Shown here piece by piece: positions 8,086 to 25,500 of a stretch of 64,000 nt of DNA. The notes beneath the pieces were generated by a model that saw only the letters and a list, made by a program, of their open reading frames with translations, was not told the origin of the DNA and made no database searches. The stretch spans positions 29,876 to 93,875 of the IMG/VR virus record IMGVR_UViG_3300010883_000009, one strand, 5' to 3'. The first letter of the stretch is position 1, and each line of letters starts with the position of its first letter. This DNA is from a virus. The position numbers were made by a program, and so were the translations under genes.

Positions 8086-8952
8086 TTAGCTGCCAGCCGT
8101 AACCGTTACCTTCGCCGTAGCGTAGGAGTTGATTACTACGATACCGACTTCCTCGTAGATAACCCATCCGAGACGAAGCTTCTTTGGATCGTCCGCTGGG
8201 AGAACGGTGATATCCTGACGAATCGGGAATGCACCAACGTACTCTGCGGGAGCGAGCAAGAAGACTGTATCAGTAGGGCACTTCGAAGAAACATGGATGT
8301 CAGCCGTGAACAAGTGTCCGAAGAGACCTGTAGTCAAGACTTCCTTCTGTGTCGCTTCATCGTAAACGGTCTTACCGAAGTTACGGATGTCTGCGTAACG
8401 CAAAGCGTGGCAAACGATCTTTCCTACAGTAAGGTCGTGCTGTTCGATAGTTGCGAATGCTTGGTTCAATGCGTTAAGCGTCAAAGCACCACCAGTCGAA
8501 ACGACGGTATGTGCAGCGTCAACTGCGGCATTGATAGCGTTGAAGATGTTTAAGTCCTCTTCCTTCTGGATCGCTTCCTTCGCCTTGATCTGTGCTCTGT
8601 CTACAATGTAGAAACGACGAGCCTTGACTTCGGAAAGTCTGATCGTGGGGTTAGTTGCAATTTCGAACGTAGGTACGAGGATTTCCTCACCTTCTGTGAT
8701 CATGTCAGGTACAGCGCCACGACGTGAAATGACGTGTGCGGTAGCTCTAACATCCTTCTCATAACGGGCATACGCGCCCTGAGGAAGTTCATCAACCATA
8801 AGCAATTTTCGGCCTACGGCTTGGTATTCCAGCGCTCGACGGATAGGCTCCACCATTGCCTGTGCTAACGCAACTCGACCTTGGGGGGTATCCAACGCTT
8901 GAGCGATGAGACTTTCTCTCTCAGCATTTACTGCTCTTTTGTCAATAGCCAT
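8086..8952 (-). CDS. major capsid protein, HK97 fold
   Basis: LAQAMVEPIRRALEYQAVGRKLLMVDELPQG and PTFEIATNP...KEAIQKEED resemble large-phage (Bxz1-like) capsid proteins; position after protease/scaffold; strong RBS and terminator. Confidence 0.88.
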   Translation of the reverse strand: MAIDKRAVNAERESLIAQALDTPQGRVALAQAMVEPIRRALEYQAVGRKLLMVDELPQGAYARYEKDVRATAHVISRRGAVPDMITEGEEILVPTFEIATNPTIRLSEVKARRFYIVDRAQIKAKEAIQKEEDLNIFNAINAAVDAAHTVVSTGGALTLNALNQAFATIEQHDLTVGKIVCHALRYADIRNFGKTVYDEATQKEVLTTGLFGHLFTADIHVSSKCPTDTVFLLAPAEYVGAFPIRQDITVLPADDPKKLRLGWVIYEEVGIVVINSYATAKVTVTAGS

Positions 8953-9015
8953 TTTACTTTCTCCTTAAGTTGTTTTATAGGGGTTATAGCCTATAAAAAG
9001 AACTATTACTTAACC

Positions 9016-9528
9016 TTATATGGTTAGTTTAACTTCGATATAGGTGTTACTGTTTTCTCCACTAAGAGCCTGATCGCCGTTGGAGTCAACGCCCGGTACG
9101 CCCGAAGGATATGTACCAGCAGCTTTGATCAAACGACCAACTTCGCCCGAAGCGAATGAGTTTGTGGGGGACAATACACCGCTTACAGCGTAAAGAAGGT
9201 CACCGATAGTAGAAGAGGATACGTTTGCAAGGAACTGATCCGTTGCAAATTCACCACCACTATGGTAAACAGTCATTTTGCCAGAAGCTTTAGTTTCATC
9301 GAAATAATCCGATGCCCTATTTTGCCAGTCACCGGAAACTCCGGGCATGGCTGATGCGCTAGTTGATTTGGTGTCGCCTGCGATTCCGTAAGGAGCTGCA
9401 TTCGTCGCACTTTGCAGTACAACTTCGCCAGATGAGTTCAAAGAAACAATCTGTCCTTCCTTAATAGTTTCGCCTGAAGCAACAGCCCTCTCAGCAGCAA
9501 CAACGTGATATCTTTCTATAAGAGCCAT
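9016..9528 (-). CDS. probable capsid decoration/cement protein
   Basis: 170-aa Gly/Ala/Ser-rich protein between scaffold and capsid gene; IKEGQIVSL...ASGKMTVY...FATDQF. Confidence 0.65.
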   Translation of the reverse strand: MALIERYHVVAAERAVASGETIKEGQIVSLNSSGEVVLQSATNAAPYGIAGDTKSTSASAMPGVSGDWQNRASDYFDETKASGKMTVYHSGGEFATDQFLANVSSSTIGDLLYAVSGVLSPTNSFASGEVGRLIKAAGTYPSGVPGVDSNGDQALSGENSNTYIEVKLTI

Positions 9529-9685
9529 TTTATTTTCTCCTTTTAATTTGAGTTACTTCGCTTGAATTATTGGCGGATTGTTCTTCTTTTTATTAAAATC
9601 AGTTAATGCTGAATGAGTAAGTCGTTTTTTCTTCGTTTTAGTGCTATCGATTTGATTATGTGATTATGCCAATTTACGTTAAACC

Positions 9686-9713
9686 TATTCTATAACTTTA
9701 GGTGAAATCCCTT
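9686..9713 (-). promoter_or_regulatory. AGG-N19-GAA promoter for decoration/capsid operon
   Basis: AAGGGATTT...AGAATA; one of 20 matching sites upstream of genes. Confidence 0.75.
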
Positions 9714-9742
9714 TTTTTAATTAGTAATTTTTACGGATACAG

Positions 9743-9770
9743 AAAAGCCCGTTCAAAAAATGAACGGGCT
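9743..9770 (-). terminator. intrinsic terminator after protease/scaffold gene
   Basis: AGCCCGTTCA/TGAACGGGCT stem plus T-tract. Confidence 0.7.
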
Positions 9771-9788
9771 GCTTCTGCGTAACGTAAA

Positions 9789-12700
9789 TTACTTCTCTCC
9801 GTAGATCGTCAAATCCTTATCGAACTTGGTATTGCCAATCGTGAAAGAATTTTCCAACTGACTTTGCAGATCATTTACTCCAGCAGTTACCATAGGAGTA
9901 GACTCCTGCACGATTGCAGGGATGCTGTAACCAGCTTCAACTGTCTGTCCTGACTGAGCTTCTGCTGTCTTAATAGTCGTCTCAGGGAACATACGATTCG
10001 CCATAACCTGAATCTGATCCGTCTCAAAGCCCATAAGAGCTTGTACGACAGTATCAAATGTATCCTTGTCCTTGGCGACTCGTTGATTCGCTACGAGCCA
10101 TGCAGCCGTCTGAACCGCTTCGTTCTTGCGAGCTTGGGCGATTCTGTCAAGCTGTACCTGACGCTTCTGCTGTACCTGCTTTAGGATCTCGTCGTTAGTT
10201 CCGGGCATTCCCTTACCAGTATTGGCATGATCATATCCTTGCTGAACTTCCTTTTCGTGACCCATGTAAGCGTCTGATACAGGAACGTCTGGTCCATCTG
10301 CCTTGGGGTTGATGTTATCTGCGCCTTCGTTACCCATCTCAGCATTTGCTCGGGGTACATCGGGCTTAGCAGCAGGAACGTCGATGTTATCCGGTCCTTC
10401 GTTGCGGATTGTAGCGTCAGAGCGTGGAACGCCTGCTTCTACATCGCCTTCAACCGTATCAACTTCCTTCAACTTCTTTGCCTGCTTCTCTTGAGAAGCC
10501 TGCTTGATTTCATCATCACCTTCAGCAATGACGGTTCCCTTGATCTCGTTATTAATGGCAGGCATTCCCTTACCAGTATTGGCATGATCATATCCTTGCT
10601 GAACTTCCTTTTCGTGACCCATGTAGGAACTGTCTACGGGAGTCTCGGGGAGACCAGCCTTAGGATTGATGTTGTCTGCGCCTTCATTGCCAAGTTCGGC
10701 ATTTGCGCGAGGAACATCGGGTTGCGCCATTGAGACATCAATGTTATCTGCGCTTTCATTTCTGATAGTCGCGTCAGATCTTGGGACTCCAGCTTCTACA
10801 TTGCCTTCGATGTCCTTTACCTGTTTTGGGGTACTTGCCATCTTCAAAACCTCCTCATTAGTATTTCTAACTCTTTTGGAATTCATAGTCAAAGCTAGTC
10901 GCATTTCTTCCTCAGGGTCAATTTCTTCCTCTGAAGCTTCAACTTGAACTTCAACTGATGCTACAATGTTCTCTTTTTCAGAAGCAGACTCTTTTTTGTC
11001 ATCGTCTTTGCCTTTGCCTTTGCATTCGCAAGGATCACATTCGCATTTCTTGCAGCAATCCCCATCATCCTTGTCGCACTTGCAACTAGCTTTTGGGTTT
11101 TTGCAGTCATCGCAGAAGAAACCTTTAGCTTCAACAACGATTTCGTCCTCAACTTCTGCTTCAACTTCGATATAATCCGCAGGAGGAAGTTCGGTTCCGA
11201 TATCCTCTTCGTCAGCCTGAGCTAACTTCTGATGCTCTGCTTCGACCTCAGCAGATTTTTCTTCTGCCAAAATACGATCCAAAGTAGCTAAGTCGCCAGC
11301 CGTGATTCCATCTTCTCGACCCTCTTCGGCGTCATCTGAGAATGCCTGAGCGTAAACGTTCTGCATCCATTCAGAAGCGAAACGCTTCTTGATGCAGTTA
11401 CAGATAGCCTCAGCTTCCTTCAAAGTATGCCCTTCGCTGTCGGTCTGATCCTCAATGCACTCGTCCCATGGGTCTTTCTCCATCGAAATAGAGGCAAGCT
11501 TGTTCAAGTGACGAATCTTTCGGAATCCAAGCTTCTGAAGCTGTCCGCATACGCATTCAGCTAAAAGCTTACCTTTGCAAGGACCAAACGATGCAACCGT
11601 GTCGCCGCCATATCTGCGAGCTAAACGTTCCATGCAAGCGCTTACGGGGAATTCGTCTGCATTTGCAGCAGCCGTCTTCAACATTTGAGCAACTCTGACC
11701 TCAGAAGCAAACTTAAGAGCCTCTTCCTTGCAGCTTTCGCAATTCTCAACGTCAGGGAAGAGATCCCATTGTACTCTGAGATAACCGACCTCTGGGTTGC
11801 TTGCGCTTACCATGAAGTCCTTCTCTACAGGAGTTCCGCATGCTGTGCAAGAGAACTCAGTATGACCATCTTCTTCTGCCGATGCTTCGCAGTTATCCTT
11901 GCCGCAAGCTGGGCAAACATGTCCGTGCTCTTCCTGATTCTTGGCGATACGAACAATCGCATCCTTGCCAAGGCTAGTCTGAGCCGCTACGGGCAATGCA
12001 GGAACCTCAGGAACTTCAGGAGCTTCAGGAGTATCAACTCCCTCTTCGCCTACGCTCTTAGTAGGTTTGATGATCTTGAATTCAACTTCCTTCTTGATAA
12101 GGGCTTCATATTCGGCTGTGCAAGCGTTGCATGTGCCATGAATATCTCCGCCTTCATTCGTAACGTCTACGTCGGTACTTCCGCACTCAGGACATACTGT
12201 CCAAGGCATCTGACGTTCGCCAGTCGTAGGAATGTCATCTTCTGCGCTTGTGTCTTCCGTTGTCAAAGCCTGTACGGGGTCTCCCTCCATAGGTGCTGGA
12301 CCCGGCAAACCCTGTTCAGGTGCTGCGCCGCCTGCGCCGGGCATTCCGCCGCCCATAGGGGACTGTGCTTCTCGCGTCATCTTGTCCTTGGACGATGCCC
12401 AAGAGTTTTCAAGACCTTCGCCTGCCATATCGCCTTCAGGGACGGTTTCGGCAGGAGCATCAAGACCTTCAAGACCTTCGCCAATAGGAATCTCGGTTGT
12501 TCCTTCGCCCGTATCAATGTTGACCTCATTCTCTTCGGTGTCCGTTTGGACTGCGATTTGAATGGTGTCGCCGCTGATTGTTACGTTCGTAATGGAACCT
12601 AAACGAAGATTCTGAGAAGCGAGTGCGCCTTTCGTGAAAGCAACAACTGATGGCTTATTGTCGCCCAACTGTCCCGGCTCAACGCCCAACTCTTTAAAAC

Positions 12701-15383
12701 TGGTTTCAATTACCGTGTCAGCCTCTCCAATCTCTTCCTTGTTGAGGATTTCCTGTTCTTGATCCTTAACGGAAGCGAGAAGATTCTCACGTTCTGAGTC
12801 TCTTTCTGCTCTCGAAGACTCAACATCAACCTGAGGCTTCAACGCAGCGCGAAGTTCATCCTTACGGCTGACCTTAGCGGTTGTCTCTTCCTTGGCTGCT
12901 TCGAGCTTCTCTTCGACTAAAGAAGAAACGCTATCGATACCTTCCTGTCCTTCAGAAATGATATCTACGGCATCCATGAGAAGGTCAGGGTTGATTGTTT
13001 CGTCAGACGCATGAGCGCGAAGACTGTCTACGACAACCTCTGCAATCTCTTTAGTTCCAACGCTAGCAACCCTAAGATTCTTATTCTGCCAATAGGCAAC
13101 TCTCTTTGCGTAATCGATATCTTCTCTTGATTTTGAATCTTCGAAAAGCGATACGCCCAAATTGTATCTACTTTCAAGCGAGTCAACCAAGGATGCTGCT
13201 ACAGAACATGCTTCCTCGGGAGTACAACCCGTCTTGATAGCGGACGAGGCCATAACATCAACTACCGTCTGCATATGCTCGGACGCGCTCTTGAACCTAG
13301 CTGCATCCCTTCCGGCGGCTCTCGCCCAAGGTGCTGCTACGTTACGAAGTTGATCCTCGGTAATTGTATTTGGCTCGTTATCAACGCGCTTGCCCTCATC
13401 AGGCAATTGCTGTTGTGTAATAGAGTGCTGGTCGCCTTCGATCCTATTATCGCCTTCCATTTGTCCTTCTTGGACTTGATCCGGAGCGTCACCCTCTCTT
13501 GGGTGCTGCTTCAATTCAGGATCATCCAATTGACCTTCGGTGATCTCATTCTTTTCGCCCGAGCGCTTCTCTTCGAGTTGCTCTTGGGTAATAGAATGTT
13601 TTTCATCCTTCTGTCTGGCGTGATAAAGATCGGAACGCTCAAGCTGACCCTCTTGAACCTGATCTGGAGTCGTTGCTCCAGCTTCTTTGCTGATATCAGT
13701 CATCTTTTTTACTCCTTCTTTTGTAGTATTGAGATTATTCGCAAATGTATCCAATAACTTAATTGCTGCGTCTTTAGGGGAATCGATAATTTCTCCACGT
13801 TCTTGTTCTGTCAGGTCTTCATACGTCCAAACCTTTTTCGCAGAAGAGTCTTTATCTTCCGCGACGATGATGAACGAGTCATCACGTTTATTGACAGACA
13901 AGCGATGATCATTGTTTTGTATTGATGGTACTTTCTTTATATACTCGAAAAAGGATTGTTTTTCCTCCCACGAATTTGATAGAACTTCAATAGCCTTCTT
14001 TTTTTGTGCTTGCTTCTCAGCAATTGTTCGTCTTGCTCCCATCTCTGTTTCTCCTGTTTTGTTGATTCTTTCACAAATATTCGATGCATTTCTTACAATT
14101 GCTTTTCCGTCCGCTACGCGCTGTTCAAAGGGAACGTCCTTAATTGCGCAGCTTATATCTGAGACTCTCTGAATTGAACGACTGTCCTGAACATCCGATG
14201 TTCTCGGCTTAACAGGAGCAGTAATAGGTAAATTTGGGGAAGATGTTGCTGGTGAAGCAGGAGATCCCGAAATACTACCCACTCCCGCCGTAGATTCCGC
14301 AGCAGGCATAGCCGATGGCATTCCTCCGGGCGCAGGCGGCATACCTTCAGGCATAGGTGGTTCTGCTCCAACTGGTCCAGCCCCGCCTTCTTCTAGATTT
14401 CCAACAGTTCCCGGTACTTCATCGCCCATGTTCCCGTATCCTGCTCCTACCAATTCTTCCATCCAAGTCTGAAGATCAGACATAATCTGCACCAAATCGC
14501 TAGAAAACTCCATTTCGACTTGTTGACGATTTTGAATAAGGTTGATAGCAATTTGTTCCAATATCTCTAGACATTGTTCAATTTGATCAATTTCTTCTTG
14601 GCTGGCTTCCTTCTCAATAGCCGCAGTACGAACCATTCGAAGCTCGTTCTCTATGGACGCAACCTTAGCTAAGAAGTTTTCGTTAGGAATAATGCCCTCA
14701 ATATGACAATTCGGGCAGGCAGGATCAACTACAGCGCTCAACTCAATAAACTTGAGTCCGTAGTTGAATTCAAATACATCTTGATCCTTAAAAGACTTTT
14801 CTTCACCAGTTTTAACGTCTCTGGCTCGACCTGTAAATGTTCTTCCCTTGCGGTTACGAATATGCGTACAATAATCTTCGGTACGCTCAGCTTGGTTATT
14901 GCAAATATTACAAACGCTGTATTCAACCGAACAACCCATGCTGACGCCGGTTACATACTCTTCCTCGATTGAACGACAAATATGCGGATATGCATCTCTA
15001 TCAATAAAACAGATAGTGTAGATTGCCTGCTCTTCAGGGACAGCTTCAGCAAAAATAACCTTCCCGCGAGCATTCTCTACGTTCTGATTATCATGGTTGG
15101 TGAAAAAAGGAACGCCTTCAAAGCTCTTGTATGCGGAAAGAAGTTCGTCCCATGAAAAATAATCGCCGTTAGTATTAGGGCAATCGGCTTCAATAGCTTT
15201 AGCACGGAAGAACAAAGCATTGGGATGCTTCTTTATCTCGGCTTCAACGATTTTCGCCTTATCAGAACCGGGTTCAACAATAACCCTACCTGATGCTGTA
15301 CGCATCATTCGGTCACCGTCTTCATTCGCACCCACTAATGGGTTAATGTCTGTAAAGTTAAAAGATGCTTCTTTTACTATCAT
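9789..15383 (-). CDS. prohead maturation protease fused to scaffold (1864 aa)
   Basis: N-terminal NTNGDYF, FTNHDN, RGKVI, GVSMGC, FIELSAVVDPA motifs of HK97/herpes-type prohead proteases with a CxxC insert; long acidic and Cys-rich C-terminal region; upstream of the capsid genes. Confidence 0.82.
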   Translation of the reverse strand: MIVKEASFNFTDINPLVGANEDGDRMMRTASGRVIVEPGSDKAKIVEAEIKKHPNALFFRAKAIEADCPNTNGDYFSWDELLSAYKSFEGVPFFTNHDNQNVENARGKVIFAEAVPEEQAIYTICFIDRDAYPHICRSIEEEYVTGVSMGCSVEYSVCNICNNQAERTEDYCTHIRNRKGRTFTGRARDVKTGEEKSFKDQDVFEFNYGLKFIELSAVVDPACPNCHIEGIIPNENFLAKVASIENELRMVRTAAIEKEASQEEIDQIEQCLEILEQIAINLIQNRQQVEMEFSSDLVQIMSDLQTWMEELVGAGYGNMGDEVPGTVGNLEEGGAGPVGAEPPMPEGMPPAPGGMPSAMPAAESTAGVGSISGSPASPATSSPNLPITAPVKPRTSDVQDSRSIQRVSDISCAIKDVPFEQRVADGKAIVRNASNICERINKTGETEMGARRTIAEKQAQKKKAIEVLSNSWEEKQSFFEYIKKVPSIQNNDHRLSVNKRDDSFIIVAEDKDSSAKKVWTYEDLTEQERGEIIDSPKDAAIKLLDTFANNLNTTKEGVKKMTDISKEAGATTPDQVQEGQLERSDLYHARQKDEKHSITQEQLEEKRSGEKNEITEGQLDDPELKQHPREGDAPDQVQEGQMEGDNRIEGDQHSITQQQLPDEGKRVDNEPNTITEDQLRNVAAPWARAAGRDAARFKSASEHMQTVVDVMASSAIKTGCTPEEACSVAASLVDSLESRYNLGVSLFEDSKSREDIDYAKRVAYWQNKNLRVASVGTKEIAEVVVDSLRAHASDETINPDLLMDAVDIISEGQEGIDSVSSLVEEKLEAAKEETTAKVSRKDELRAALKPQVDVESSRAERDSERENLLASVKDQEQEILNKEEIGEADTVIETSFKELGVEPGQLGDNKPSVVAFTKGALASQNLRLGSITNVTISGDTIQIAVQTDTEENEVNIDTGEGTTEIPIGEGLEGLDAPAETVPEGDMAGEGLENSWASSKDKMTREAQSPMGGGMPGAGGAAPEQGLPGPAPMEGDPVQALTTEDTSAEDDIPTTGERQMPWTVCPECGSTDVDVTNEGGDIHGTCNACTAEYEALIKKEVEFKIIKPTKSVGEEGVDTPEAPEVPEVPALPVAAQTSLGKDAIVRIAKNQEEHGHVCPACGKDNCEASAEEDGHTEFSCTACGTPVEKDFMVSASNPEVGYLRVQWDLFPDVENCESCKEEALKFASEVRVAQMLKTAAANADEFPVSACMERLARRYGGDTVASFGPCKGKLLAECVCGQLQKLGFRKIRHLNKLASISMEKDPWDECIEDQTDSEGHTLKEAEAICNCIKKRFASEWMQNVYAQAFSDDAEEGREDGITAGDLATLDRILAEEKSAEVEAEHQKLAQADEEDIGTELPPADYIEVEAEVEDEIVVEAKGFFCDDCKNPKASCKCDKDDGDCCKKCECDPCECKGKGKDDDKKESASEKENIVASVEVQVEASEEEIDPEEEMRLALTMNSKRVRNTNEEVLKMASTPKQVKDIEGNVEAGVPRSDATIRNESADNIDVSMAQPDVPRANAELGNEGADNINPKAGLPETPVDSSYMGHEKEVQQGYDHANTGKGMPAINNEIKGTVIAEGDDEIKQASQEKQAKKLKEVDTVEGDVEAGVPRSDATIRNEGPDNIDVPAAKPDVPRANAEMGNEGADNINPKADGPDVPVSDAYMGHEKEVQQGYDHANTGKGMPGTNDEILKQVQQKRQVQLDRIAQARKNEAVQTAAWLVANQRVAKDKDTFDTVVQALMGFETDQIQVMANRMFPETTIKTAEAQSGQTVEAGYSIPAIVQESTPMVTAGVNDLQSQLENSFTIGNTKFDKDLTIYGEK
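10204..10625. repeat. internal duplication in scaffold, period 357 nt (119 aa), with a 65-nt identical core
   Basis: 10204-10268 equals 10561-10625 (YMGHEKEVQQGYDHANTGKGMP); VEAGVPRSDATIRNE also repeated. Confidence 0.9.
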
Positions 15384-17071
15384 AACGTTGTCCTTCCTTG
15401 ATACTTTTTAATTACCCGTTCAATCCCCCAAGCACTTTTACCCTTGCCTTGACTTCGTAAATCTTTAGCAATTTTTTGCAATGCTCCAAGCGTCCTTGTC
15501 AGAGTAACCTTCTCTTCTTCCGCTTCTTCCTGCTGTTCTTCGCCGTCTTGAGGCGGAGTTTTCACGGAAGGTCTATCAACCTCTATATTTTCAATTCCTT
15601 CAGAAGGTACTTCGCCTGTATCTTCTACTAACAGTTGTTCTTCATCTTCTACTAACAGTTGTTCTTCATTTTGTGGGATAAATCCTTCTCCGGATCTCAT
15701 TTGAGTTAGATCTAGACTTGTCATATTCACATTAGTTGGCATCTCGAACATAGATGGTATCATAACGAGTTTAGCCCTAGACACTGGGTCAATCTCTGTG
15801 GACTGTACCTCTGCGAACCTCAAAGCGGCAATTTTCAAAGCAGTTTCCATGTCATCGAAACCCTGCCTCATTTCAACTAAATTATTAGCAAACTCTCCCA
15901 CCATCTCTTCATAACCCTTGACCTGTTGAACGTTACCATCCGCATCATGACTCTCTTGAAACGTCCGCACTTGTTGAAGCCAATGAGTAACAATGTCAGG
16001 CGTAAAAAGTCCCTGAGCTTTGCCTTTCTTTTTTGGGCGTTTATTGTTAAGACCTTGAGCTATTGACTCCGGATCATCGCTACCTGTCTCAACAATAATC
16101 TCACAAATCTCTTTCATAAGCTTGATCATTTGAGTTTGTTCTCGGGAAGGCTTAAGCGCTTCAGATCTCTGGCTTCCTGAACGGCGAGGTTTCATAATAT
16201 CTTCAGCCAAAGGATTAACCTGCGCAAATTGTTCAGAAACTTCTTGAGCGAAGTCGTTGTCCATTTTTGCTGCTTCTAAAATTTGATCTTCAGGGATACC
16301 TCTGCGACCCGCTACTGCCTGAATAATCCCTTTGAGTTGCTCTTCTTGTTGGTTATTCTCTGCAACTCGCATAAGTAGCTTGAAAACCCCCTGAGGTTTA
16401 ATCATAAAATAACTACCTACGCCCATAGCTGTTCGATAAGGTGGATCGTTACCTTCATCTAATGACTTCTGATAATCATTAGCCGCCAAAAATTCAGGAG
16501 TCATATCTATCAACTCGTAATCTTCTCCCGGCGTTCCTTTGCCAGAACCAGTTCGCTGACGTACCTGAAGCAAAAAATCGTCTGGAGCAACAACTTCACC
16601 CAATCTAGCAACTCCAAGATCATCAGTAATCTTTTTGTAAGCAGAATGCCCCATCAAAAACTTATTCCAAAGAGTCAAAAGATTTCTAGAATCAGTACTA
16701 GGATAACGCATGGTAAAGTAACCAAACTTATTCTCTTCATCTTCTTGTTTAGTACCTACATATGGTCCTACGCCAACCATATAGGCACCATATGCGGGAT
16801 GATATCCCACATTCATGCTATAGAACTCTTTAACCTGTTCAGGATTGACTTGGTATCGTTCTGCAAATGTATCAACATAATCTTGATACTCAGATTGGAC
16901 ATGATGGATGATTTTTTCGAGCGAGGGATTTTTGGCGACTAATTGATTCCACTTTTCATCTTGTCCGCTCAAAATATTATCGAGTGTGAACCATTCATAT
17001 TCAGGACGGTACGACTGCCAATCCCATCCCATAGCAAATCGATGAAGGTTGAATCGAGCTTTACTTGTCAT
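15380..17071 (-). CDS. hypothetical head-associated protein
   Basis: Probable start MTSKARFNLHRFA; EEQLLVED duplication; C-terminal LQKIAKDLRSQG helix. Confidence 0.7.
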   Translation of the reverse strand: MTSKARFNLHRFAMGWDWQSYRPEYEWFTLDNILSGQDEKWNQLVAKNPSLEKIIHHVQSEYQDYVDTFAERYQVNPEQVKEFYSMNVGYHPAYGAYMVGVGPYVGTKQEDEENKFGYFTMRYPSTDSRNLLTLWNKFLMGHSAYKKITDDLGVARLGEVVAPDDFLLQVRQRTGSGKGTPGEDYELIDMTPEFLAANDYQKSLDEGNDPPYRTAMGVGSYFMIKPQGVFKLLMRVAENNQQEEQLKGIIQAVAGRRGIPEDQILEAAKMDNDFAQEVSEQFAQVNPLAEDIMKPRRSGSQRSEALKPSREQTQMIKLMKEICEIIVETGSDDPESIAQGLNNKRPKKKGKAQGLFTPDIVTHWLQQVRTFQESHDADGNVQQVKGYEEMVGEFANNLVEMRQGFDDMETALKIAALRFAEVQSTEIDPVSRAKLVMIPSMFEMPTNVNMTSLDLTQMRSGEGFIPQNEEQLLVEDEEQLLVEDTGEVPSEGIENIEVDRPSVKTPPQDGEEQQEEAEEEKVTLTRTLGALQKIAKDLRSQGKGKSAWGIERVIKKYQGRTTL

Positions 17072-17480
17072 CTTTCTTTTCATTAGCTTCTTTCCATTTA
17101 TCTACCTTGCCTTTAATGCCGAATAGCTGGGCAGAAGTATAAGGCTTCAATTCTCTTGGGGTATCTACTCCCCAAGTTTCCTTAGCATAACGAGCGGCGG
17201 CATCCATGCTGTCAAAGTACTTGCCGCCTGCTGAAAAAGTAGCTGGTAAACGTCTAACTCCCGCAAAAAATTTAGCTCGGGGTTTATGGACTTGAGCAGG
17301 ACCAATAATGCAGTAATACCCTACACTTTCGTCTGACTTACCTTCGAAACGAAAATAACTGCCGGGTCCAACTACATCCTCAAACATGTCCTTAAGGAAC
17401 TGAGTTTTTTGAGTGTAGACTTGTTTCCAGCCGATATGCTTTTCGACCAATTTTTCTCTAGATAATTTTTCCATAAACAA
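17061..17480 (-). CDS. hypothetical protein
   Basis: 139-aa ORF in head module behind promoter motif; start may be 17474. Confidence 0.7.
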   Translation of the reverse strand: MFMEKLSREKLVEKHIGWKQVYTQKTQFLKDMFEDVVGPGSYFRFEGKSDESVGYYCIIGPAQVHKPRAKFFAGVRRLPATFSAGGKYFDSMDAAARYAKETWGVDTPRELKPYTSAQLFGIKGKVDKWKEANEKKDDK

Positions 17481-19877: not shown

Positions 19878-21239
19878 TTAACTTGGCTGGAGTTCCGTTA
19901 CGGCAAAGTCTTGCCCATAGGCAGGTTCGGCATTTTGCGTTTCCAATGCCGCTTCAGCCATTGCCTCCTGATCATCTTCATTGAGACCAATCTCTGTAGC
20001 TACATCCTGAATCGGCGTTGTTGAAGCAACTTCGAAATCCATGTTAGCGAAGCTTACGCGACTTCCAACCAAATTTGCGTTTACTGGGTGATCAACGATC
20101 TCGAAGACATTTGTAACGTTAGGAACGTTAACAAACATTGCCCCCGGATCTAAGTAAATTTGCTGATTAGCATCACCGCTGAGAACACCATACGCTCCGT
20201 TTTGATCTGTAACTTTAATGTTGCTCGTACCAGCGTGTTCCAACATCTCCTGTAATGTTTCAGCCTTTTTGACTACCGCTTCGTAACCGATGCCTGCATG
20301 CTTAGATACTAGCCGTTGAGCAACTTGATCAATTTGTGCAACTCCCATGACTGAAGCTCTGTAATGGTCGCAAATAGAATCAACCATTGTTTCATATTCG
20401 ACACCTGCTTCTCGCATTTCAATTGTATCTTTGAAAATATGATAGATACGATCTTGTTCAGCTTCTTTAAGATTCTTATTTGAAGCAACCTTTACGACCT
20501 TCTCAAACGAGTCAGCAGCAACGGTAATGCTATCTGCCTTATTGTCTCTCGCTTCTTCCAAGCGTCTTTCGGTAGAGTACTGATGCGGTCTTGGCTTGCG
20601 AGTCCTTTCTCCGTCTGCCAATTCCATCTGATTCCCTCCGTCTCTTGGAGCGTCAGGATTAGCAGGAGTTCCGGCAGTTGGGAAAACATGGAAACGGTCA
20701 TTGATGTAACCACCAACTACTTTCCCATCATTATCTTTGTAATCCCTGTAGAACTTATCCATTACATATGTTCGCCAAATAGATTCTCCGCTATAGATGT
20801 GATGAGGATCTTCATCAAAACGAATTTCATCGGTTGCGTAGTGCGTGAAGTCATAATACTTATCGCGTCCTACTCTCCAAGGAGTATTTTCGTTGTAAGC
20901 GTCTACAACTCTGTTCCATTTGTTTCTGCTGGATCTAGTCCATTCATTACGCTGACGAGGATCTGAAGATTCTTTTTTCATAGCTGTTGCCTGTTTTGTT
21001 AGTTTTGTAATATCATGTTTAGCGAGAACGCCGAACAAAATCTCAGAAGCATTGCTATTCTCTCCCTGTTCTAAAATTGCTTGACAGGAATCATGAATGT
21101 CTTGCTCGTCATCCGGAATTTCAGACATGTCTGGAACCGTCTCAATCATTTTCATGAGTTCTTGCGCAGCTTCTTCAGCCGAACCTCTTGAACGAACCCA
21201 CGCTTCTAAATCCTTAGGATTCTGAAAATACTCTGCCAT
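19878..21239 (-). CDS. hypothetical head-module protein
   Basis: 453-aa ORF with AGGAG RBS and several K-x-A/S motifs. Confidence 0.75.
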   Translation of the reverse strand: MAEYFQNPKDLEAWVRSRGSAEEAAQELMKMIETVPDMSEIPDDEQDIHDSCQAILEQGENSNASEILFGVLAKHDITKLTKQATAMKKESSDPRQRNEWTRSSRNKWNRVVDAYNENTPWRVGRDKYYDFTHYATDEIRFDEDPHHIYSGESIWRTYVMDKFYRDYKDNDGKVVGGYINDRFHVFPTAGTPANPDAPRDGGNQMELADGERTRKPRPHQYSTERRLEEARDNKADSITVAADSFEKVVKVASNKNLKEAEQDRIYHIFKDTIEMREAGVEYETMVDSICDHYRASVMGVAQIDQVAQRLVSKHAGIGYEAVVKKAETLQEMLEHAGTSNIKVTDQNGAYGVLSGDANQQIYLDPGAMFVNVPNVTNVFEIVDHPVNANLVGSRVSFANMDFEVASTTPIQDVATEIGLNEDDQEAMAEAALETQNAEPAYGQDFAVTELQPS

Positions 21240-21249
21240 GTCTAGCTCC

Positions 21250-22245
21250 TTATTGTGCTACGCCCAAGTTTGATGCTAAAGAACTTGCGAAATCATCAGA
21301 AATCTGACGAGAACTTTGTTTACAAGGCTTCTCCCAATCGTCGTTCTCTTTCGGACGCTGGATAGAGGCTTTGTACTCTTTGTTATGTTTCGCAATCTTT
21401 TCGCCTTCAGTCAAATCGGGCAAAGTTTGTTTTCCGCTACCATAAACGCCGCCTTGAACGGGTTCGTGATTAAGACCCGTATGAGCATTAAGTGATTCGG
21501 TTGGGAATACCGTTCCTTTCGGAATTATATCTCCTCCAGACATTTCATCAGCCTTATCTTGCTGCCATTCGGTATGATTCGCCTTCTTCTGCTCTTCTTT
21601 GTCTTTTGCTTGCTGCTTCAAGCGTTCGCCGTTATCAGGAGTTTCACTCTCTGCAAATTCTTTGATAGCGTCAGGATTCGTGATGCTGTTTTGGTTAGGA
21701 GCGGGGTTAACATCCGAATTTTCGAAATAATTCTCTCCGCCACCAATCGCAATGACATCACCTGTAAACAGGGATGGTTCGGACAAGTTGTCTTGTTTCT
21801 TAACCTGTTCCCAGTTAGCAGGCTCCATGTGAGACGTATCTGAACGCTCATCAATGCGGAAAGGATCTTTCCATACACCTCGTAAATTTTGCGTTTCCTC
21901 AGATGGAGCCGCTGCTTGCGCAGTTCTAACCATCGTATCGGATGCTGATTCTCTTTGAATATCGACAGGATTAAACCCCTTAAACTTGGACAAATCCATG
22001 CCGCAAGCAATGGCGTATTCTCTCAAATGACGAACAACACCATCATCCCAATTGGAATTATAATGGTAAGGCTTACCGTTAGAAGAACATGCTTCAATCC
22101 TATCGCACTCTTGAGCTAATACCAATTCGTCCACTTCCTCAGAAACATTTATTTCCTCAACTTCTTCAGTTGGAATGGAAGGTTTTTGTTCTTCGGTCAT
22201 GAACCAAGGAATGCTCTGTTCGTCTGCGACTCGTAATATGTTCAT
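21250..22245 (-). CDS. hypothetical head-module protein
   Basis: MNILRVA start, internal VRTAQ; promoter motif upstream. Confidence 0.75.
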   Translation of the reverse strand: MNILRVADEQSIPWFMTEEQKPSIPTEEVEEINVSEEVDELVLAQECDRIEACSSNGKPYHYNSNWDDGVVRHLREYAIACGMDLSKFKGFNPVDIQRESASDTMVRTAQAAAPSEETQNLRGVWKDPFRIDERSDTSHMEPANWEQVKKQDNLSEPSLFTGDVIAIGGGENYFENSDVNPAPNQNSITNPDAIKEFAESETPDNGERLKQQAKDKEEQKKANHTEWQQDKADEMSGGDIIPKGTVFPTESLNAHTGLNHEPVQGGVYGSGKQTLPDLTEGEKIAKHNKEYKASIQRPKENDDWEKPCKQSSRQISDDFASSLASNLGVAQ

Positions 22246-22585: not shown

Positions 22586-25500
22586 TTATTTCAACTCTTT
22601 GAAGCCGGGTTCAGGCTCAGTCTTCTTCTTGTCAAAATCAAACTGCTCTTGTTCCTCTTTGTCACCCTTTTTCATACGACGAAATACCTCTCGATCTCCA
22701 AGAATCAACTCACCTGTTGAATCATCGTCTTTCATGGAACCTTCGCAATATTCCAGCACCTTGACGAAGTTTTCCGTATTCCATTCCAAACCCTTCTCAC
22801 CTCGTTTGAGATAGTAATGATGAGCCGCCATTTCCATAACAAGAGTTTCAACGTCTCGAACAGTAAAGCCCTTCATGGTACAAAGTTCTGCAACTTGATC
22901 CAAATCAAGACCGTCAATGGCTTTTTGCAACGCTTCATGCGTCATGAAGCCAAGAACCTTGATCTCTCGATTTTTCATTCTACGACCCGTTGTTTTGAGG
23001 GTCTCCTTCATAGATTCCGAATCAAAATTGTCAATGTCAATTACCAAATCTACACGACCTGATCTCAACATTGGACCTGTAATCGTTTCTTTATGGTTCG
23101 TAGTCATGACAACGAAAATGTTTCGCTTAGCGAATTCGTTCTCTTCTTGACCATTCTGCAACCAAGCCATGAACTCAGACTCGACTTGCTTATGAGCCTC
23201 ATGCATACCTGCCGCAGAGTCATTAGTTGCACCGATTGCTCTATCATATTCATCGATACGAACGATTACATGAGAAGAGTTCATAATAGCCTGAATTGAC
23301 TTCCTTGCTTGTTCGGAACCCTCTCCAACCCATTTAGAGTGAACTGCATTAACATTGAAATCCCAAATATCGAATCCCAAAAGTCCTGCCAAGTGGATCG
23401 GGAATGCAGAGTTATGAGTTACTGTGTAGTCTCCAAGTAAAAATTGGTTATCTCCATCTACTTCAAAACCAAAGTAATCGCCAACACCAATCGGTTCAAC
23501 ATCAATACCACATTTTACTCCAATTTTTTGAGGATTGTCATGCGCTTGTTTCCTCTCTAGAAGCGTAGGGATTTCGGATAGGTTTCCCCCAAACGTAACC
23601 GTATAGCATCTTATTTTGTAGTTTCTAGATTTAAGCGTCTTTATAGATGATGTCTCAAAAACCTTAAAACCTAAACTTCTACCCAAGTCAGCCACATCTT
23701 TTGCCAATCTTTCATTGACGTTAAAGAACTGTAACGAGCCGCTTTTGGTTTGATATCCGTCAGAGTCTATTAATCCTGCCAAAAGAGCCAATCGATTCTT
23801 TCTAGAATTAACCTTATAAACATTTGGAATGTGTTTATTTCCATATATATCTGTTGACCTGAGCGCAGCCTTTACAAAATTGTCTGCATATCCGCTACCT
23901 TGACGAGGTGAGAAATTTATTACCTCTGCTTTAGTTGTCGTCCGGTTTTCAACTCTGACGAATAAATTATTCGCCTTAGCCCAATCCATTAACCATTCCC
24001 GAACTGAATTATCTTTATCACCAACGGTTATTGCAGGTTTTTTAGAAGTACCGTCTCCTAACCATAGTCCTGTCCAGTACGGGTCAAGGGGCAAATCTTG
24101 CTTAGGATACTCAACACCTGTTTTCCATCCGTAGTGAGTTTTCTTCCATGTTTCCCCTTTCTGTACATATTCTTCAGCAGAAATAAAAACCGGATCGTCT
24201 TGGAATCTCCCCTCTTTCTTCAAAGACAAAATGTGTTTGTCATTGCAAATATAGTTGTCGCCATTTCTTTGACTAATCTTGTATAGCTCTCCTACGCCCT
24301 TTGTCGTTCCGAGAATCTTGCGGGGAGTCGAATCTGGACCCATTAAGATGTCATCCAATTGCACGTCTTCTACATTCTTCTTGGACCCATCAAACATGAT
24401 AACTGGAGTTCCTTGACCAAGGCATTTACCAACTCCGCCTTTGCCGAATAGAACAGAAACGTGAGGCATCCGCGTTTGAATGCGTTCAATCAGATCTTCG
24501 AATTGAGATTCATCCTTTCCTGCTTCAACAGCCTTTTGAGAACGCTTACGAAGCTCAGAAACCTCTCTGAAGTCTCTGAGTAACTTCTCTACATCCCAAG
24601 TAAAGTTGCTTGACTCAGGCGCAATGTAATCTTCCCATGGACGAGGCGTTAACTGTGTTAAACCATATCCTTTGTCCATGAATTTCTGATTGATTGTTTT
24701 ACGAAGAGTTTTTATCGCTTTAATGCTGTCGATCTTCTTAGATTTTGGGGGTTCTTCAGAAGCAGCCAACGAAGCAGCCAAAACATCTCCCGCTTCAGTA
24801 TAAGTCAAACCTGCCAACTTACGAACAATCTGTTCGCGCTGCGCTTTGCTGAATTTAACTTGGTATTTTGCGTTAGTGTACAGATCAGTGAAACTCTCAA
24901 TGATATGATTAGCTTCATGCTCATCAACTGGACTTATTTCAAGCGTTCTAACTTGGAAAGGCAATTTTAGTTTGACGTTTGAAATCAATAACATACGGCA
25001 ACCCTTTTTGATGCTAGGGTTGCGGAAATTATCGAAAACGTTCAATGCCTTAGGCTCAACTACTCCGGGATTCTCCTTGAAGCAGAAGTCAACTGCGAAA
25101 TCAACATTTTTGATGATCAACAGCTTATCCTTGAATCTACCTTGTAGAACTTCTCGACGACTAACAAATCCGTCAGGCTTCCTTTTGCGTTTTCCAGTTT
25201 GAGGATCTGTTTTCGGTATTGGGATATCCATGTCTGGATCTTGTTCTGTTTCGATAGAACCGTAGATCAACTCGTCAAGATAACCATAACTACGCCCTTT
25301 GCCGGGTTGACCATGCTGAAGCTCAACAGCATCAATGTCAGCGGTGTTGTTGTAGAGTTCTTGCATTTTGAAACATTCCTTCATTAACGCATCTACTAAG
25401 CAAGGGTCTTCGTGATTAACTACGAAATTTGTAATACCGGTCAACGACAGCTTGGTAGAGACTATAAGCTCTTCCTTGAGCTTTTGGAATGTCTCGCTAG

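What the first reader, a model, noticed from the sequence alone, without database searches (positions are those of the whole stretch)
9789..15383. Giant protease-scaffold polyprotein with about 25 K/R-x-A/S sites, suggesting an unusual prohead protease specificity
Seen: VKEAS, MRTAS, AKVAS, VRTAA, EKEAS, VRNAS, SKEAG, FKSAS, LRVAS, TREAQ, VRIAK, LKFAS, VRVAQ, LKTAA, NKLAS, KRFAS, QKLAQ, LKMAS, IKQAS, DRIAQ, IKTAE and others, often at boundaries between acidic linkers, CxxC clusters and the 119-aa duplication. The motif also lies near the N-termini of the portal (SRTAA) and capsid protein (DKRAV) and in other head-module genes. It looks sparse in the reductase and ClpP, but I did not count it there. 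Inference: the protease cleaves after K/R-x-A and dices its own scaffold into peptides, some zinc-binding.
Basis: partly seen in the sequence, partly recalled or inferred. Interest (0 to 1): 0.75.

Follow-up and report, generated by a model that had tools for sequence, protein, structure and literature searches.

The report
Megaphage head protease-scaffold with Lys/Arg-x-Ala sites
This 1864-residue gene of an uncultured relative of Bacillus phage G fuses the capsid-maturation protease to a giant scaffold studded with a conserved hydrophobic-x-Lys/Arg-x-Ala signal. The signal is most likely where the protease cuts, a herpesvirus-like "after alanine" rule rather than the "after glutamate" rule of T4 and phiKZ, but no cut has been measured.

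Summary
All 21 listed pentapeptides are in the ORF at 9789-15383 (-). [KR]-x-A occurs 38 times against about 19 expected, [KR]-x-A-[SAQG] 23 against 5, and [KR]-x-A-S 12 against 1.2. Local shuffles, mirror motifs and other spacings show no such excess. Only Ala is enriched at the third position; Ser and Gly are at chance.

The motif is a conserved short linear signal, hydrophobic-x-[KR]-x-A followed by a small or polar residue. It is kept in place across 67 homologs of 38-76% identity and enriched about 3-fold in 95 more distant family members.

It brackets the protease domain (101 of 108 on the C-side, 106 of 109 on the N-side). It also recurs 25-90 residues from the C-terminus (161 of 192).

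Residues 31-240 fold like T4 gp21 and herpesvirus assemblin. The other 105 ORFs of the contig carry the motif at chance in their bodies but about 6-fold over chance at their N-termini.

The best reading is self-processing of a protease-scaffold polyprotein, laid out like herpesvirus pUL26 with release-type and maturation-type sites. This is inferred, not shown.

It is a new inferred specificity for a known kind of system. The scan has noted the same K-x-A code in at least eight other genomes.

The parts
9789..15383 (-). Whole ORF P0001: prohead protease fused to a giant scaffold/core polyprotein, 1864 aa
   Evidence: more than 140 full-length homologs; lies between the portal and the decoration and capsid genes
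15294..15383 (-). N-terminal propeptide, residues 1-30, with two sites: I-V-K4-E-A6|S and M-M-R28-T-A30|S
   Evidence: pLDDT below 50; both sites kept in 94-96% of 67 homologs; 106 of 109 family members have a site before the domain, 44.6 expected
14664..15293 (-). Protease domain, residues 31-240, T4 gp21 / herpesvirus assemblin fold
   Evidence: phrog_18299 head maturation protease E 2e-15; VIA-align Z 9.3 to 5jbl and 8.2 to 1vzv; 41% identical to phage G gp19
14934..14948 (-). G146-V-S148-M-G150, candidate catalytic serine
   Evidence: S148 invariant in 26 homologs; inteins inserted at G150|C151 or G146|V147 in many homologs
15093..15095 (-). His97 in the N-H-D motif, candidate catalytic histidine
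   Evidence: invariant; the assignment is inferred
14598..14672 (-). Release-site cluster just after the protease domain: K240-V-A242|S, R252-T-A254|A, K258-E-A260|S-Q
   Evidence: pLDDT below 50 for residues 241-260; kept in 100%, 63% and 91% of homologs; 101 of 108 distant family members have a site within 35 residues after the domain, 31 expected, typically K-x-A-S-Q-x-[DE]
13314..14597 (-). Residues 263-690: helix, Pro/Gly/Ala-rich linker, a conserved block and acidic I-T-Q-x-Q-L repeats; sites R431-N-A433|S and K566-E-A568|G
   Evidence: K566 site kept in 87% of homologs; a further family site at alignment position 408 is missing here
12534..13313 (-). Residues 691-950: helical domain plus a small beta/alpha domain; sites K698-S-A700|S at the start of a helix and R771-V-A773|S in a loop
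   Evidence: AF2 pLDDT 60-88; sites kept in 91% and 88% of homologs
12213..12533 (-). Disordered acidic/Gly-Pro linker, residues 951-1057, with M-T-R1004-E-A1006|Q
   Evidence: pLDDT about 26-31; site kept in 96% of homologs with Gln after Ala in 66 of 67
11208..12212 (-). Residues 1058-1392: two zinc-ribbon-like CxxC...CxxC units and a Cys-rich helical domain; sites at Ala 1147, 1226, 1238, 1297, 1336
   Evidence: weak zinc-ribbon matches to aIF2-beta and TiaS, E about 0.06; pLDDT 70-88, with these sites inside or at the ends of predicted helices; conservation 66-99%
10884..11207 (-). Residues 1393-1500: acidic stretch with a dense metallothionein-like Cys cluster (13 Cys between residues 1424 and 1453)
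   Evidence: direct reading; pLDDT below 50
10104..10823 (-). Residues 1521-1760: tandem 119-residue duplication, preceded by L-K1514-M-A1516|S and split by K1627-Q-A|S and K1633-Q-A|K
   Evidence: K1514 site kept in 96% of homologs; mostly pLDDT below 50
9792..10103 (-). C-terminal helices, maturation-type site I-K1805-T-A1807|E and the conserved tail F-T-I-G-N-x-x-F-D-x-x-L-T-I-Y-G-E-K
   Evidence: site lies in a stretch with pLDDT below 50 just after the helical domain; 161 of 192 family members have [KR]xA[SAGQNT] 25-90 residues from the end, 44.7 expected
9746..9770 (-). Intrinsic terminator-like hairpin (10-bp stem, then a T run) just after the stop codon
19644..19661 (-). Portal protein residues 55-60, M-S-R57-T-A59|A
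   Evidence: kept as [MF]-x-R-x-A in three related loci within a variable stretch; phage G portal has L-M-R-S-A at residue 38
20481..20498 (-). 453-aa head-module protein, V-V-K250-V-A252|S
   Evidence: kept as V/I-K-V/I/L-A-S in three related loci
21916..21933 (-). 331-aa head-module protein, M-V-R107-T-A109|Q; it also has the N-terminal leader M-N-I-L-R-V-A at 22225-22245
   Evidence: kept as [VI]-[KR]-T-A-[SQ] in related loci despite variable flanks
8932..8952 (-). Capsid protein N-terminus M-A-I-D-K-R-A|V, a possible 7-residue propeptide
   Evidence: fits the motif but cannot be judged: the capsid protein is 92-97% identical in related loci and phage G gp27 lacks the site

Best explanation
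P0001 is the capsid-maturation (prohead) serine protease of a phage-G-like megaphage, fused at its C-terminus to about 1600 residues of scaffold/core protein.

The recurring signal is hydrophobic(P5)-x-Lys/Arg(P3)-x-Ala(P1), followed by a small or polar residue. It is most likely the recognition site of this protease, docked as an extended strand (side chains at i, i+2 and i+4 face one way) and cut after the alanine.

Inside the assembled procapsid the protease would do four things:
1. Free itself by cutting at Ala6 and Ala30 and at the cluster Ala242/254/260 (release sites).
2. Detach the scaffold from its conserved C-terminal tail near Ala1807 (maturation site).
3. Cut the rest into roughly 15-18 pieces of 6 to about 310 residues, some carrying zinc-ribbon or Cys-rich modules.
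4. Trim the portal, other head proteins and the 7-8-residue leaders of some 20 other proteins on the contig.

Shown here: the statistical excess, positional conservation, family-wide distribution, the fold, and placement around the domain.

Inferred: that cutting happens, that this protease does it, which bond is cut, and what becomes of the fragments.
For: 1. Excess. The motif is 2-10-fold over expectation. This survives local shuffles and is absent from mirror and other-spacing controls. It is the top non-Cys hit in unbiased k-mer scans of P0001 and of 82 distant family members, where K.A is 1837 vs 848, K.AS 381 vs 64 and L.K.A 243 vs 53.

2. Conservation. 24 of 38 sites are kept in at least 60% of 67 homologs of 38-76% identity. 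Outside the protease domain, conserved column pairs (KR, A) at spacing 2 number 12 against about 1.6 expected. P5 is M/L/I/V in 59% of cases. The scaffold diverges fast (52-71% identity) while the capsid protein stays 92-97% identical.

3. Placement. Sites lie in low-confidence flanks on both sides of the protease domain. Of 108 distant relatives, 101 have a site within 35 residues after the domain (31 expected), and 106 of 109 have one before it (44.6 expected). 161 of 192 have one 25-90 residues from the C-terminus (44.7 expected). Stand-alone phage G gp19 has K-I-A, K-T-A and K-I-A before its domain and K-V-A-S and K-I-A-S after it.

4. Enzyme. PHROG head maturation protease E 2e-15. Fold match to T4 gp21 at Z 9.3 and to herpesvirus proteases at Z 7-8. 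H97, S148 and H174 are invariant. Inteins in homologs sit at G150|C151, Y171|C172 and G146|V147.

5. Specificity within the genome. Bodies of the 105 other ORFs are at chance (56 vs 45), while their first 15 residues hold hydrophobic-x-[KR]-x-A 24 times against 3.7 expected. Conservation of the leaders stops right after the Ala. Sites in the portal and two further head proteins are kept in related loci.

6. Other proteases. The trypsin-like peptidase is absent from the complete genomes of phage G and Catera, and ClpP is absent from Catera. Both phages still show the excess: gp19 10 vs 3.4, Catera gp94 33 vs 18.

7. Precedent. T4 gp21 cuts at I/L-x-E (PMC12991175). Herpesvirus pUL26 has an N-terminal protease with R and M sites ending in Ala (PMC4498786).
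Against: No experimental cleavage data exist for this phage or for any relative I could find, phage G papers included.

Sites 1147, 1226, 1297 and 1749 lie inside predicted helices, and 1238 and 1336 at helix ends, in confidently folded regions where a protease may not reach. There the motif could be structural.

Some conserved [KR]xA positions are followed by Y, F, L or R (Ala 131, 763, 847, 920, 1255) and look like fold elements rather than cut sites.

No Pfam peptidase family matches.

The third catalytic residue is unclear, because H174 could instead be a zinc ligand together with C158, C161 and C172.

The family statistics come from related sequences, so z-scores overstate independence.

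HK97 cuts after Lys (from memory). T5 pb8 reads L-K159-A160, and from memory the mature protein starts at residue 160. A cut after the K/R is therefore not excluded.
Confidence: 0.68

Rival explanations
1. The motif is a docking or targeting signal that is bound but not cut. For example it could hold scaffold segments and cargo leaders to the capsid shell, the portal, the protease body or a chaperone.
For: It sits at the extreme N-terminus of about 20 unrelated proteins, as capsid-targeting peptides do. Several copies lie in predicted helices of folded domains. Nothing here shows a cut.
Against: The i, i+2, i+4 pattern with a small residue at the last position suits strand docking in a protease groove. 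The motif brackets the protease domain in nearly all family members, including stand-alone phage G gp19, which is the hallmark of self-release. In T4 the targeting leader and the cut site are one element, so this reading and the main one may both hold.
Confidence: 0.12
2. The sites are cut, but by another protease: the phage's trypsin-like peptidase (32981-34045), its ClpP (46373-46960) or a host enzyme such as Prp.
For: Both phage proteases are encoded in the window. The trypsin-like gene is also in two related records. Some S1 proteases prefer small P1 residues (general knowledge). Three other ORFs carry F-N-L-x-x-F-A leaders that match the L27/Prp motif (D/N)-L-Q-(F/L)-F'A (PMC9405229).
Against: The complete genomes of phage G and Catera lack the trypsin-like family, and Catera lacks ClpP, yet both show the excess. 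The prohead protease is the only protease shared by all of them. Prp cuts after Phe and needs N-L-x-x-F (PMC9405229), which the P0001 sites do not have. No Prp gene is on the contig.
Confidence: 0.1
3. The motif is a structural or compositional by-product of Ala/Lys-rich helices or of internal repeats, with no signalling role.
For: Scaffold proteins are helical and rich in A, K and E. About six sites sit in or at the ends of predicted helices.
Against: Local shuffles give the same excess. The mirror motif and other spacings are at chance, and Ser or Gly in place of Ala is at chance. The flanks of the sites are unrelated. The excess holds after masking the duplication. The motif persists in disordered linkers and across distant relatives.
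Confidence: 0.05
4. Same protease and same motif, but the bond cut is after the Lys/Arg (P1 basic, Ala at P2'), as in HK97-type proteases.
For: HK97 gp5 is cut after Lys (from memory). T5 pb8 reads L-K159-A160, and from memory the mature protein starts at residue 160.
Against: Leader conservation runs through the Ala and stops there. T4, phiKZ and herpesvirus enzymes of this fold all read P3-x-P1 (PMC12991175, PMC10052503, PMC4498786). T5 pb11 shows no significant similarity to P0001.
Confidence: 0.15

Closest known systems
Herpesvirus pUL26 (assemblin-scaffold fusion with release and maturational sites; MEROPS S21)
   Same: The protease is at the N-terminus of the scaffold. There is a site cluster right after the protease domain and another near the C-terminus ahead of a conserved tail. 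Ala comes before the presumed cut and Ser often after it. The fold is shared (Z 7-8; PMC4498786).
   Different: There is no sequence-level homology. P3 is basic and P5 hydrophobic here, whereas herpesviruses have V/L/I at P3 (from memory). There are about 20 sites rather than 2-3, and the scaffold is about 1600 residues with zinc-ribbon and Cys-rich modules. No nested UL26.5-type internal gene was found.
Phage T4 gp21 with core proteins gp22/gp67/gp68 and the leader-tagged internal proteins
   Same: Best fold match (5jbl, Z 9.3). The protease cuts itself, dices the scaffold core at a short P3-x-P1 motif, and removes short N-terminal leaders from packaged proteins.
   Different: The T4 motif is (I/L)-x-Glu (PMC12991175). 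In T4 the protease and scaffold are separate genes. Here the motif is [KR]-x-Ala and the two are fused.
phiKZ gp175 / SPN3US gp245 jumbo-phage prohead proteases
   Same: Extensive processing of many head and internal proteins at a short motif, with several motif copies inside propeptides (PMC10052503).
   Different: Those enzymes cut after Glu in S/A/G-x-E (from memory, and PMC10052503 for the existence of the motif). The phage lineage is different.
Bacillus phage G gp19 (head maturation protease) with gp20/gp21
   Same: Closest cultured relative: the protease domain is 41% identical and the capsid protein 56%. K-x-A sites flank the domain. gp20 starts with ...L-K-K-T-A.
   Different: gp19 is a stand-alone 300-residue protease. 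The scaffold is presumably made of separate genes. No giant polyprotein is present.
Bxz1-type mycobacteriophage gp94 (Catera, 1369 aa) and phrog_2774
   Same: N-terminal protease of the same family fused to a long C-terminal region, placed next to the capsid gene. [KR]xA is 33 vs 18 expected, with R-T-A-A/G sites.
   Different: The excess is weaker and the scaffold part is unrelated in sequence. The gene is annotated only as hypothetical.

Membership tests
Assemblin-fold prohead proteases (T4 gp21 / HK97 gp4 / herpesvirus assemblin) | Shared beta-barrel protease fold | tested here: met
   AF2 model of residues 1-270 (core pLDDT 85-96). VIA-align gives Z 9.3 to 5jbl over 123 residues at rmsd 2.8, and Z 8.2-6.2 to VZV, PRV, HCMV, HSV, EBV and KSHV proteases. 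Foldseek probability is 0.99 for 5jbl, though with E 0.016.
Assemblin-fold prohead proteases (T4 gp21 / HK97 gp4 / herpesvirus assemblin) | Sequence-profile match to a curated head-protease family | tested here: inconclusive
   phrog_18299 'head maturation protease' E 2e-15 and phrog_2774 E 2e-26, but no Pfam family at E <= 0.01.
Assemblin-fold prohead proteases (T4 gp21 / HK97 gp4 / herpesvirus assemblin) | Conserved catalytic Ser and His | tested here: inconclusive
   H97 (N-H-D), S148 (G-V-S-M-G) and H174 are invariant, and inteins target positions 146-151 and 171-172. Spatial proximity was not checked, and H174 may be a zinc ligand.
Assemblin-fold prohead proteases (T4 gp21 / HK97 gp4 / herpesvirus assemblin) | Gene lies in the head module between portal and major capsid protein | tested here: met
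   Order is portal 17544-19823, P0001, decoration-like 9016-9528, capsid 8086-8952. The same order is seen in L002-L005.
Assemblin-fold prohead proteases (T4 gp21 / HK97 gp4 / herpesvirus assemblin) | Proteolytic activity on head proteins | not testable with these tools
   Needs expression or virion mass spectrometry.
Herpesvirus-type protease-scaffold fusion (pUL26-like layout) | Protease N-terminal to the scaffold in one polypeptide | tested here: met
   most of the 150 best family representatives are 1000-2400 aa with the domain at the N-terminus.
Herpesvirus-type protease-scaffold fusion (pUL26-like layout) | Release site right after the protease and maturation site ahead of a C-terminal tail | tested here: met
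   Motif present in 101 of 108 after the domain and 161 of 192 near the C-terminus, far above expectation. That these are cut is inferred.
Herpesvirus-type protease-scaffold fusion (pUL26-like layout) | Nested in-frame scaffold-only gene (UL26.5 type) | tested here: inconclusive
   One loose promoter-like match lies inside the gene at 14415-14442, with no convincing start codon after it.
Herpesvirus-type protease-scaffold fusion (pUL26-like layout) | Sequence homology to MEROPS S21 | tested here: not met
   No PDB sequence hit to any herpesvirus protease at E <= 10 with the family profile. The resemblance is in fold and layout only, so I do not file it as a member.
T4-type (I/L)-x-Glu processing code | Cut sites end in Glu | tested here: not met
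   The enriched motif ends in Ala. No [ILV].E-type pattern ranks among the top k-mers.
Host Prp / ribosomal L27-type leader cleavage (as in phage 80alpha) | Motif (D/N)-L-Q-(F/L)-F'A | tested here: not met
   None of the P0001 sites has N-L-x-x-F before the Ala. Three other ORFs do (PMC9405229).

The most novel reading that the evidence does not exclude
A very large clade of assemblin-fold prohead proteases (about 2600 sequence clusters, covering phage-G-like megaphages and Bxz1-type actinophages) has evolved a herpesvirus-like 'cut after alanine' rule with a basic P3 and a hydrophobic P5.

In this phage one enzyme would then do three things:
- release itself;
- dice a 1600-residue scaffold into about 15-18 peptides, whose zinc-ribbon and metallothionein-like pieces stay in the head with the DNA;
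- strip a 7-residue loading tag from some 20 packaged cargo proteins.

A second set of leaders would be left to the host's ribosomal protease Prp.
Probability: 0.3. Interest if true: 0.78.

Novelty: new variant of a known kind. Interest (0 to 1): 0.6.

Why it matters
Cut-site rules are known by experiment for only a few prohead proteases: Glu for T4 and phiKZ/SPN3US, Lys for HK97, and Ala for herpesviruses. A conserved [KR]-x-Ala rule in the phage G / Bxz1 lineage would have four uses.

1. It would let mature ends of head proteins, scaffold fragments and packaged cargo be predicted from sequence alone in hundreds of uncultured huge phages.
2. It would extend the phage-herpesvirus parallel from fold to gene layout and P1 preference.
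3. It would give a handle on how a T=52-class capsid is scaffolded.
4. It would predict which bacterial protease-sensing defences, such as CBASS activation loops (PMC12991175), could see these phages.

It can be tested directly in cultured phage G and in Bxz1-type mycobacteriophages.

Tried and rejected
- **Pfam on P0001:** no family at E <= 0.01.
- **PDB sequence search with the family profile:** only weak zinc-ribbon matches, E about 0.06.
- **Foldseek on the 1200-residue scaffold model** (mean pLDDT 55): no meaningful match, so the scaffold domains stay unassigned.
- **The look-up of encoding contigs:** I used IMG/VR loci instead.
- **Literature:** nine searches and several papers gave no published cut-site rule for phage G, Bxz1-type phages or this protease clade. 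The supplement of the phage G proteome paper is not held.
- **T5 as a possible known example:** pb11 has no significant similarity to P0001. Its capsid precursor reads L-K159-A160, which does not fit [KR]-x-A, and shows no [KR]xA excess.
- **Chance or composition:** rejected by local-shuffle, mirror and spacing controls.
- **Trypsin-like peptidase, ClpP or host Prp as the cutter:** disfavoured.
- **Nested scaffold gene:** one loose promoter-like match and nothing more.
- **MKIYR-type leader in phage G:** absent, but a different leader, MKRL[IVM]K, is present six times.
Full report
**What is there**

The window is part of a 93,875-bp viral contig that CheckV rates about 20% complete. That implies a genome of several hundred kb.

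The minus-strand head module reads as follows:
- portal, 17544-19823
- a 139-aa and a 567-aa protein
- the 1864-aa ORF P0001, 9789-15383
- a decoration/cement-like protein, 9016-9528
- a 288-aa HK97-fold capsid protein, 8086-8952

The capsid protein is 56% identical to gp27 of Bacillus phage G, the closest cultured relative. P0001 residues 70-218 are 41% identical to phage G gp19, the head maturation protease.

In phage G the protease is a stand-alone 300-residue protein. Here, and in more than 140 metagenomic full-length homologs, it is fused to about 1600 further residues. The same holds for Bxz1-type mycobacteriophages, for example Catera gp94 at 1369 aa. The protease domain family is very large: 2600 clusters at E <= 0.001, and most of the best 150 are 1000-2400 aa with the domain at the N-terminus.

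**Checking the observation**

Counts against residue shuffles are:

| Pattern | Observed | Expected |
|---|---|---|
| [KR].A | 38 | 19.2 |
| [KR].A[SAQG] | 23 | 5.3 |
| [KR].AS | 12 | 1.2 |

- An unbiased scan of all gapped di- and tripeptides, with one copy of the duplication masked, puts AS, R.A and K.AS at the top of their classes. CxxC tops the a..b class.
- Shuffling only within 15- or 30-residue blocks leaves the excess unchanged, at z 4.7 to 10.
- The mirror motif A.[KR] (21 vs 20) and the spacings [KR]A and [KR]..A are at chance.
- [KR].S and [KR].G are at chance, so only Ala is selected at that position.
- [DE].A is depleted, 20 vs 34.

A hydrophobic residue two places before the K/R is part of the signal: [ILMVFYW].[KR].A occurs 18 times against 4.6 expected.

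**Is it a functional signal?**

I aligned 67 intein-free homologs of 38-76% identity.
- 24 of the 38 sites keep both the basic residue and the Ala in at least 60% of sequences.
- Many are kept in more than 90%: residues 4, 28, 240, 258, 698, 1004, 1236, 1295 and 1514.
- The residue after the Ala varies among S, A, G, Q, N and K.
- Outside the protease domain, strongly conserved column pairs two apart are (K/R, A) 12 times against about 1.6 expected. A third of all conserved Ala columns sit in this context.

This scaffold diverges quickly. It is 52-71% identical in four related IMG/VR loci whose capsid proteins are 92-97% identical. Retention of the sites is therefore informative.

In 95 more distant family representatives the region after the protease domain holds [KR].A[SAQG] 1261 times against 411 expected, a median 3-fold excess. 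An unbiased scan of 82 of them ranks K.A first among a.b patterns (1837 vs 848). K.AS comes first among non-Cys a.bc patterns (381 vs 64), and L.K.A is also high. These sequences are related, so the ranks matter more than the z-scores.

**Where the sites lie**

An AlphaFold model of residues 1-270 has a confident core at 31-240. The flanks at 1-30 and 241-260 have pLDDT below 50. The flanks hold the sites at Ala6 and Ala30 and the cluster at Ala242, 254 and 260.

This bracketing is a family trait:
- 101 of 108 distant members have a [KR]xA within 35 residues after the domain (31 expected), usually as K-x-A-S-Q-x-[DE].
- 106 of 109 have one before the domain (44.6 expected).
- Phage G gp19 shows the same arrangement.

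Near the other end, 161 of 192 members have [KR]xA[SAGQNT] 25-90 residues from the C-terminus (44.7 expected). It lies ahead of a conserved tail ending T-I-Y-G-E-K. P0001 has I-K-T-A-E there, in a low-confidence stretch.

A model of residues 665-1864 (mean pLDDT 55) gives this layout:
- a helical domain at about 675-875
- a small beta/alpha domain at 890-947
- a disordered linker at 951-1057
- zinc-ribbon-like strands and a folded Cys-rich domain at 1058-1392
- a long low-confidence stretch at 1393-1735 that holds the acidic region, a dense Cys cluster and the 119-residue duplication
- C-terminal helices

About half of the conserved sites fall in linkers or loops: Ala 700 (at a domain edge), 773, 1006, 1516, 1629/1635 and 1807. 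Sites 1147, 1226, 1297 and 1749 lie inside predicted helices, and 1238 and 1336 at helix ends. So 'at domain boundaries' is only partly right. The helical sites might be structural, or cut only after unfolding.

**The enzyme**

Pfam finds nothing. PHROGs matches residues 65-222 to 'head maturation protease' at E 2e-15. The model's best structural matches are T4 gp21 (5jbl, Z 9.3, 123 residues, rmsd 2.8) and a run of herpesvirus proteases at Z 8.2 to 6.2. Unrelated MCE-domain barrels follow at Z about 6, so the fold call also leans on the PHROG match and the gene's position.

H97 (in N-H-D), S148 (in G-V-S-M-G) and H174 are invariant. Many homologs carry inteins inserted exactly at G150|C151, Y171|C172 or G146|V147. 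H174 could be the third triad member, as in the herpesvirus Ser-His-His triad (PMC4498786). It could instead be a zinc ligand with C158, C161 and C172. I could not tell.

**Specificity within the genome**

In the other 105 ORFs of the contig the motif is at chance in protein bodies: 56 vs 45 for [KR].A[SAQG] and 65 vs 58 for the hydrophobic form. It is about 6-fold enriched within the first 15 residues, 24 vs 3.7.

Some 20 unrelated ORFs begin M-K-I-Y-R-L-A or a close variant. P0001 itself begins M-I-V-K-E-A. Conservation runs from the Met to the Ala and drops at the next residue. Other first-stage notes on this genome describe these leaders. I had seen them independently before reading those notes.

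Sites in the portal (R57-T-A59), the 453-aa protein (K250-V-A252-S) and the 331-aa protein (R107-T-A109) are kept in related loci amid variable flanks. The capsid N-terminal site cannot be judged, because that protein hardly varies and phage G lacks the site.

**Which protease?**

The window also encodes a trypsin-like peptidase (32981-34045) and a ClpP (46373-46960). The trypsin-like family is absent from the complete genomes of phage G and Catera, and ClpP is absent from Catera. Yet phage G gp19 (10 vs 3.4) and Catera gp94 (33 vs 18) carry the excess. The prohead protease is the only protease common to all of them.

Host Prp cuts (D/N)-L-Q-(F/L)-F'A, that is, after Phe (PMC9405229). The P0001 sites do not fit that motif.

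**Mechanism proposed**

By analogy with T4 gp21, which reads I/L-x-E (PMC12991175), and with the phiKZ/SPN3US enzymes (PMC10052503) and herpesvirus assemblin, I read the motif as P5-x-P3-x-P1 docked as a strand with the cut after Ala. For pseudorabies virus pUL26 the predicted R site is Y-L-Q-A|T and the M site V-Q-A|S (PMC4498786).

The layout matches pUL26: an N-terminal protease, a release site, a long scaffold, and a maturation site ahead of a conserved C-terminal tail that presumably holds the capsid protein.

Cutting at the conserved sites would give about 18 pieces:
- the 212-residue protease (31-242)
- 261-568, 569-700, 701-773, 774-1006
- 1007-1147 and 1148-1226, each with a zinc-ribbon-like unit
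- several short peptides
- 1337-1516, with the acidic and Cys-rich stretch
- 1517-1749, the duplication
- 1750-1807
- the 57-residue tail

All of this is inference. The alternative that the bond after the K/R is cut, as in HK97-type enzymes, is not excluded.

**Comparison with what is known, and novelty**

Protease-scaffold fusions, self-release, dicing of the core and leader removal are all established in T4, phiKZ/SPN3US, lambda, P2 and herpesviruses. What appears new is the inferred rule (basic P3, Ala P1, hydrophobic P5), its spread over a very large clade, and the size and modular content of the scaffold.

I found no publication stating a cut-site rule for phage G, Bxz1-type phages or this clade. 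The library is incomplete, so this is absence of evidence only.

Within this scan, the same K-x-A code has been noted and followed up in at least eight other genomes, and this stretch was noted a second time from the overlapping window. Those are unchecked AI notes, and I do not count them as support.

**Verdict**

It is a new variant of a known kind of system. Confidence is about 0.68 that these are cut sites of the ORF's own protease.

Noticed in passing
homologs P0002-P0120 aligned to window 14868-14948: Many homologs of the polyprotein carry one or two inteins (Hint plus LAGLIDADG domains). They are inserted exactly at G150|C151, Y171|C172 or G146|V147 of the protease domain, beside the invariant Ser148 and His174. 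The window's copy has no intein.
   Followed up: yes
window 15380-17083 (-), 26610-26837 (-), 35255-36424 (-): Three ORFs start with F-N-L-x-x-F-A leaders (...R-F-N-L-H-R-F-A-M...V-F-N-L-K-A-F..., M-T-F-N-L-K-T-F-A-G). These match the ribosomal L27 extension motif (D/N)-L-Q-(F/L)-F'A that host Prp cuts and that phage 80alpha mimics (PMC9405229). This would be a second, host-dependent leader class. It also hints at a host with long L27 (Firmicutes, Synergistetes and others); one homolog's contig was binned as Synergistaceae.
   Followed up: partly
phage G record NC_023719: 28218, 35181, 73330, 207449, 244460, 446709 (loci L007-L012): Cultured phage G has its own leader variant. At least six genes start M-K-R-L-[IVM]-K-[KA]-[ASGEN]; the DNA pattern gives 6 forward hits, 0 reverse and 0 in the control. 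gp20 starts M-S-K-K-I-S-R-L-K-K-T-A. This makes phage G a direct test bed.
   Followed up: partly
whole contig; window 267-54295 and 13-19 kb upstream of the window: About 20 unrelated ORFs begin M-[KRN]-I-[YFIL]-[RK]-x-A or M-K-S-W-Y-[KR]-x-A. Conservation stops right after the Ala. This was also noted as separate first-stage findings.
   Followed up: partly
window 17544-19823 (-): The portal protein has a C-terminal DUF559 / MTES_1575 endonuclease-like domain at residues 657-733. Related portals (L002 1153 aa, L004 1128 aa) carry a large intein-like insert after residue about 100.
   Followed up: no
window 22586-25648 (-): An AAA ATPase is interrupted by an intein (Hom_end_hint plus LAGLIDADG homing endonuclease, residues about 409-689).
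   Followed up: no
L002-L005 compared with window 8086-15383: Evolutionary rates differ sharply between neighbouring genes: the capsid protein is 92-97% identical across relatives, the adjacent polyprotein only 52-71%, and the 567-aa neighbour 22-32%.
   Followed up: partly
window 10884-11207 (-): There is a metallothionein-like Cys cluster: 13 Cys between residues 1424 and 1453, set in a highly acidic stretch of the scaffold. The protease domain also has six invariant Cys (136, 158, 161, 172, 223, 226), which suggests a structural metal site.
   Followed up: no
window 32981-34045 (-) and 46373-46960 (+): A trypsin-like (Trypsin_2) peptidase and a ClpP are encoded by the phage. The trypsin-like gene is conserved in two related viral records but absent from phage G and Catera.
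   Followed up: partly
window 9746-9770 (-): A strong terminator-like hairpin follows the polyprotein stop codon directly, ahead of the decoration and capsid genes.
   Followed up: no
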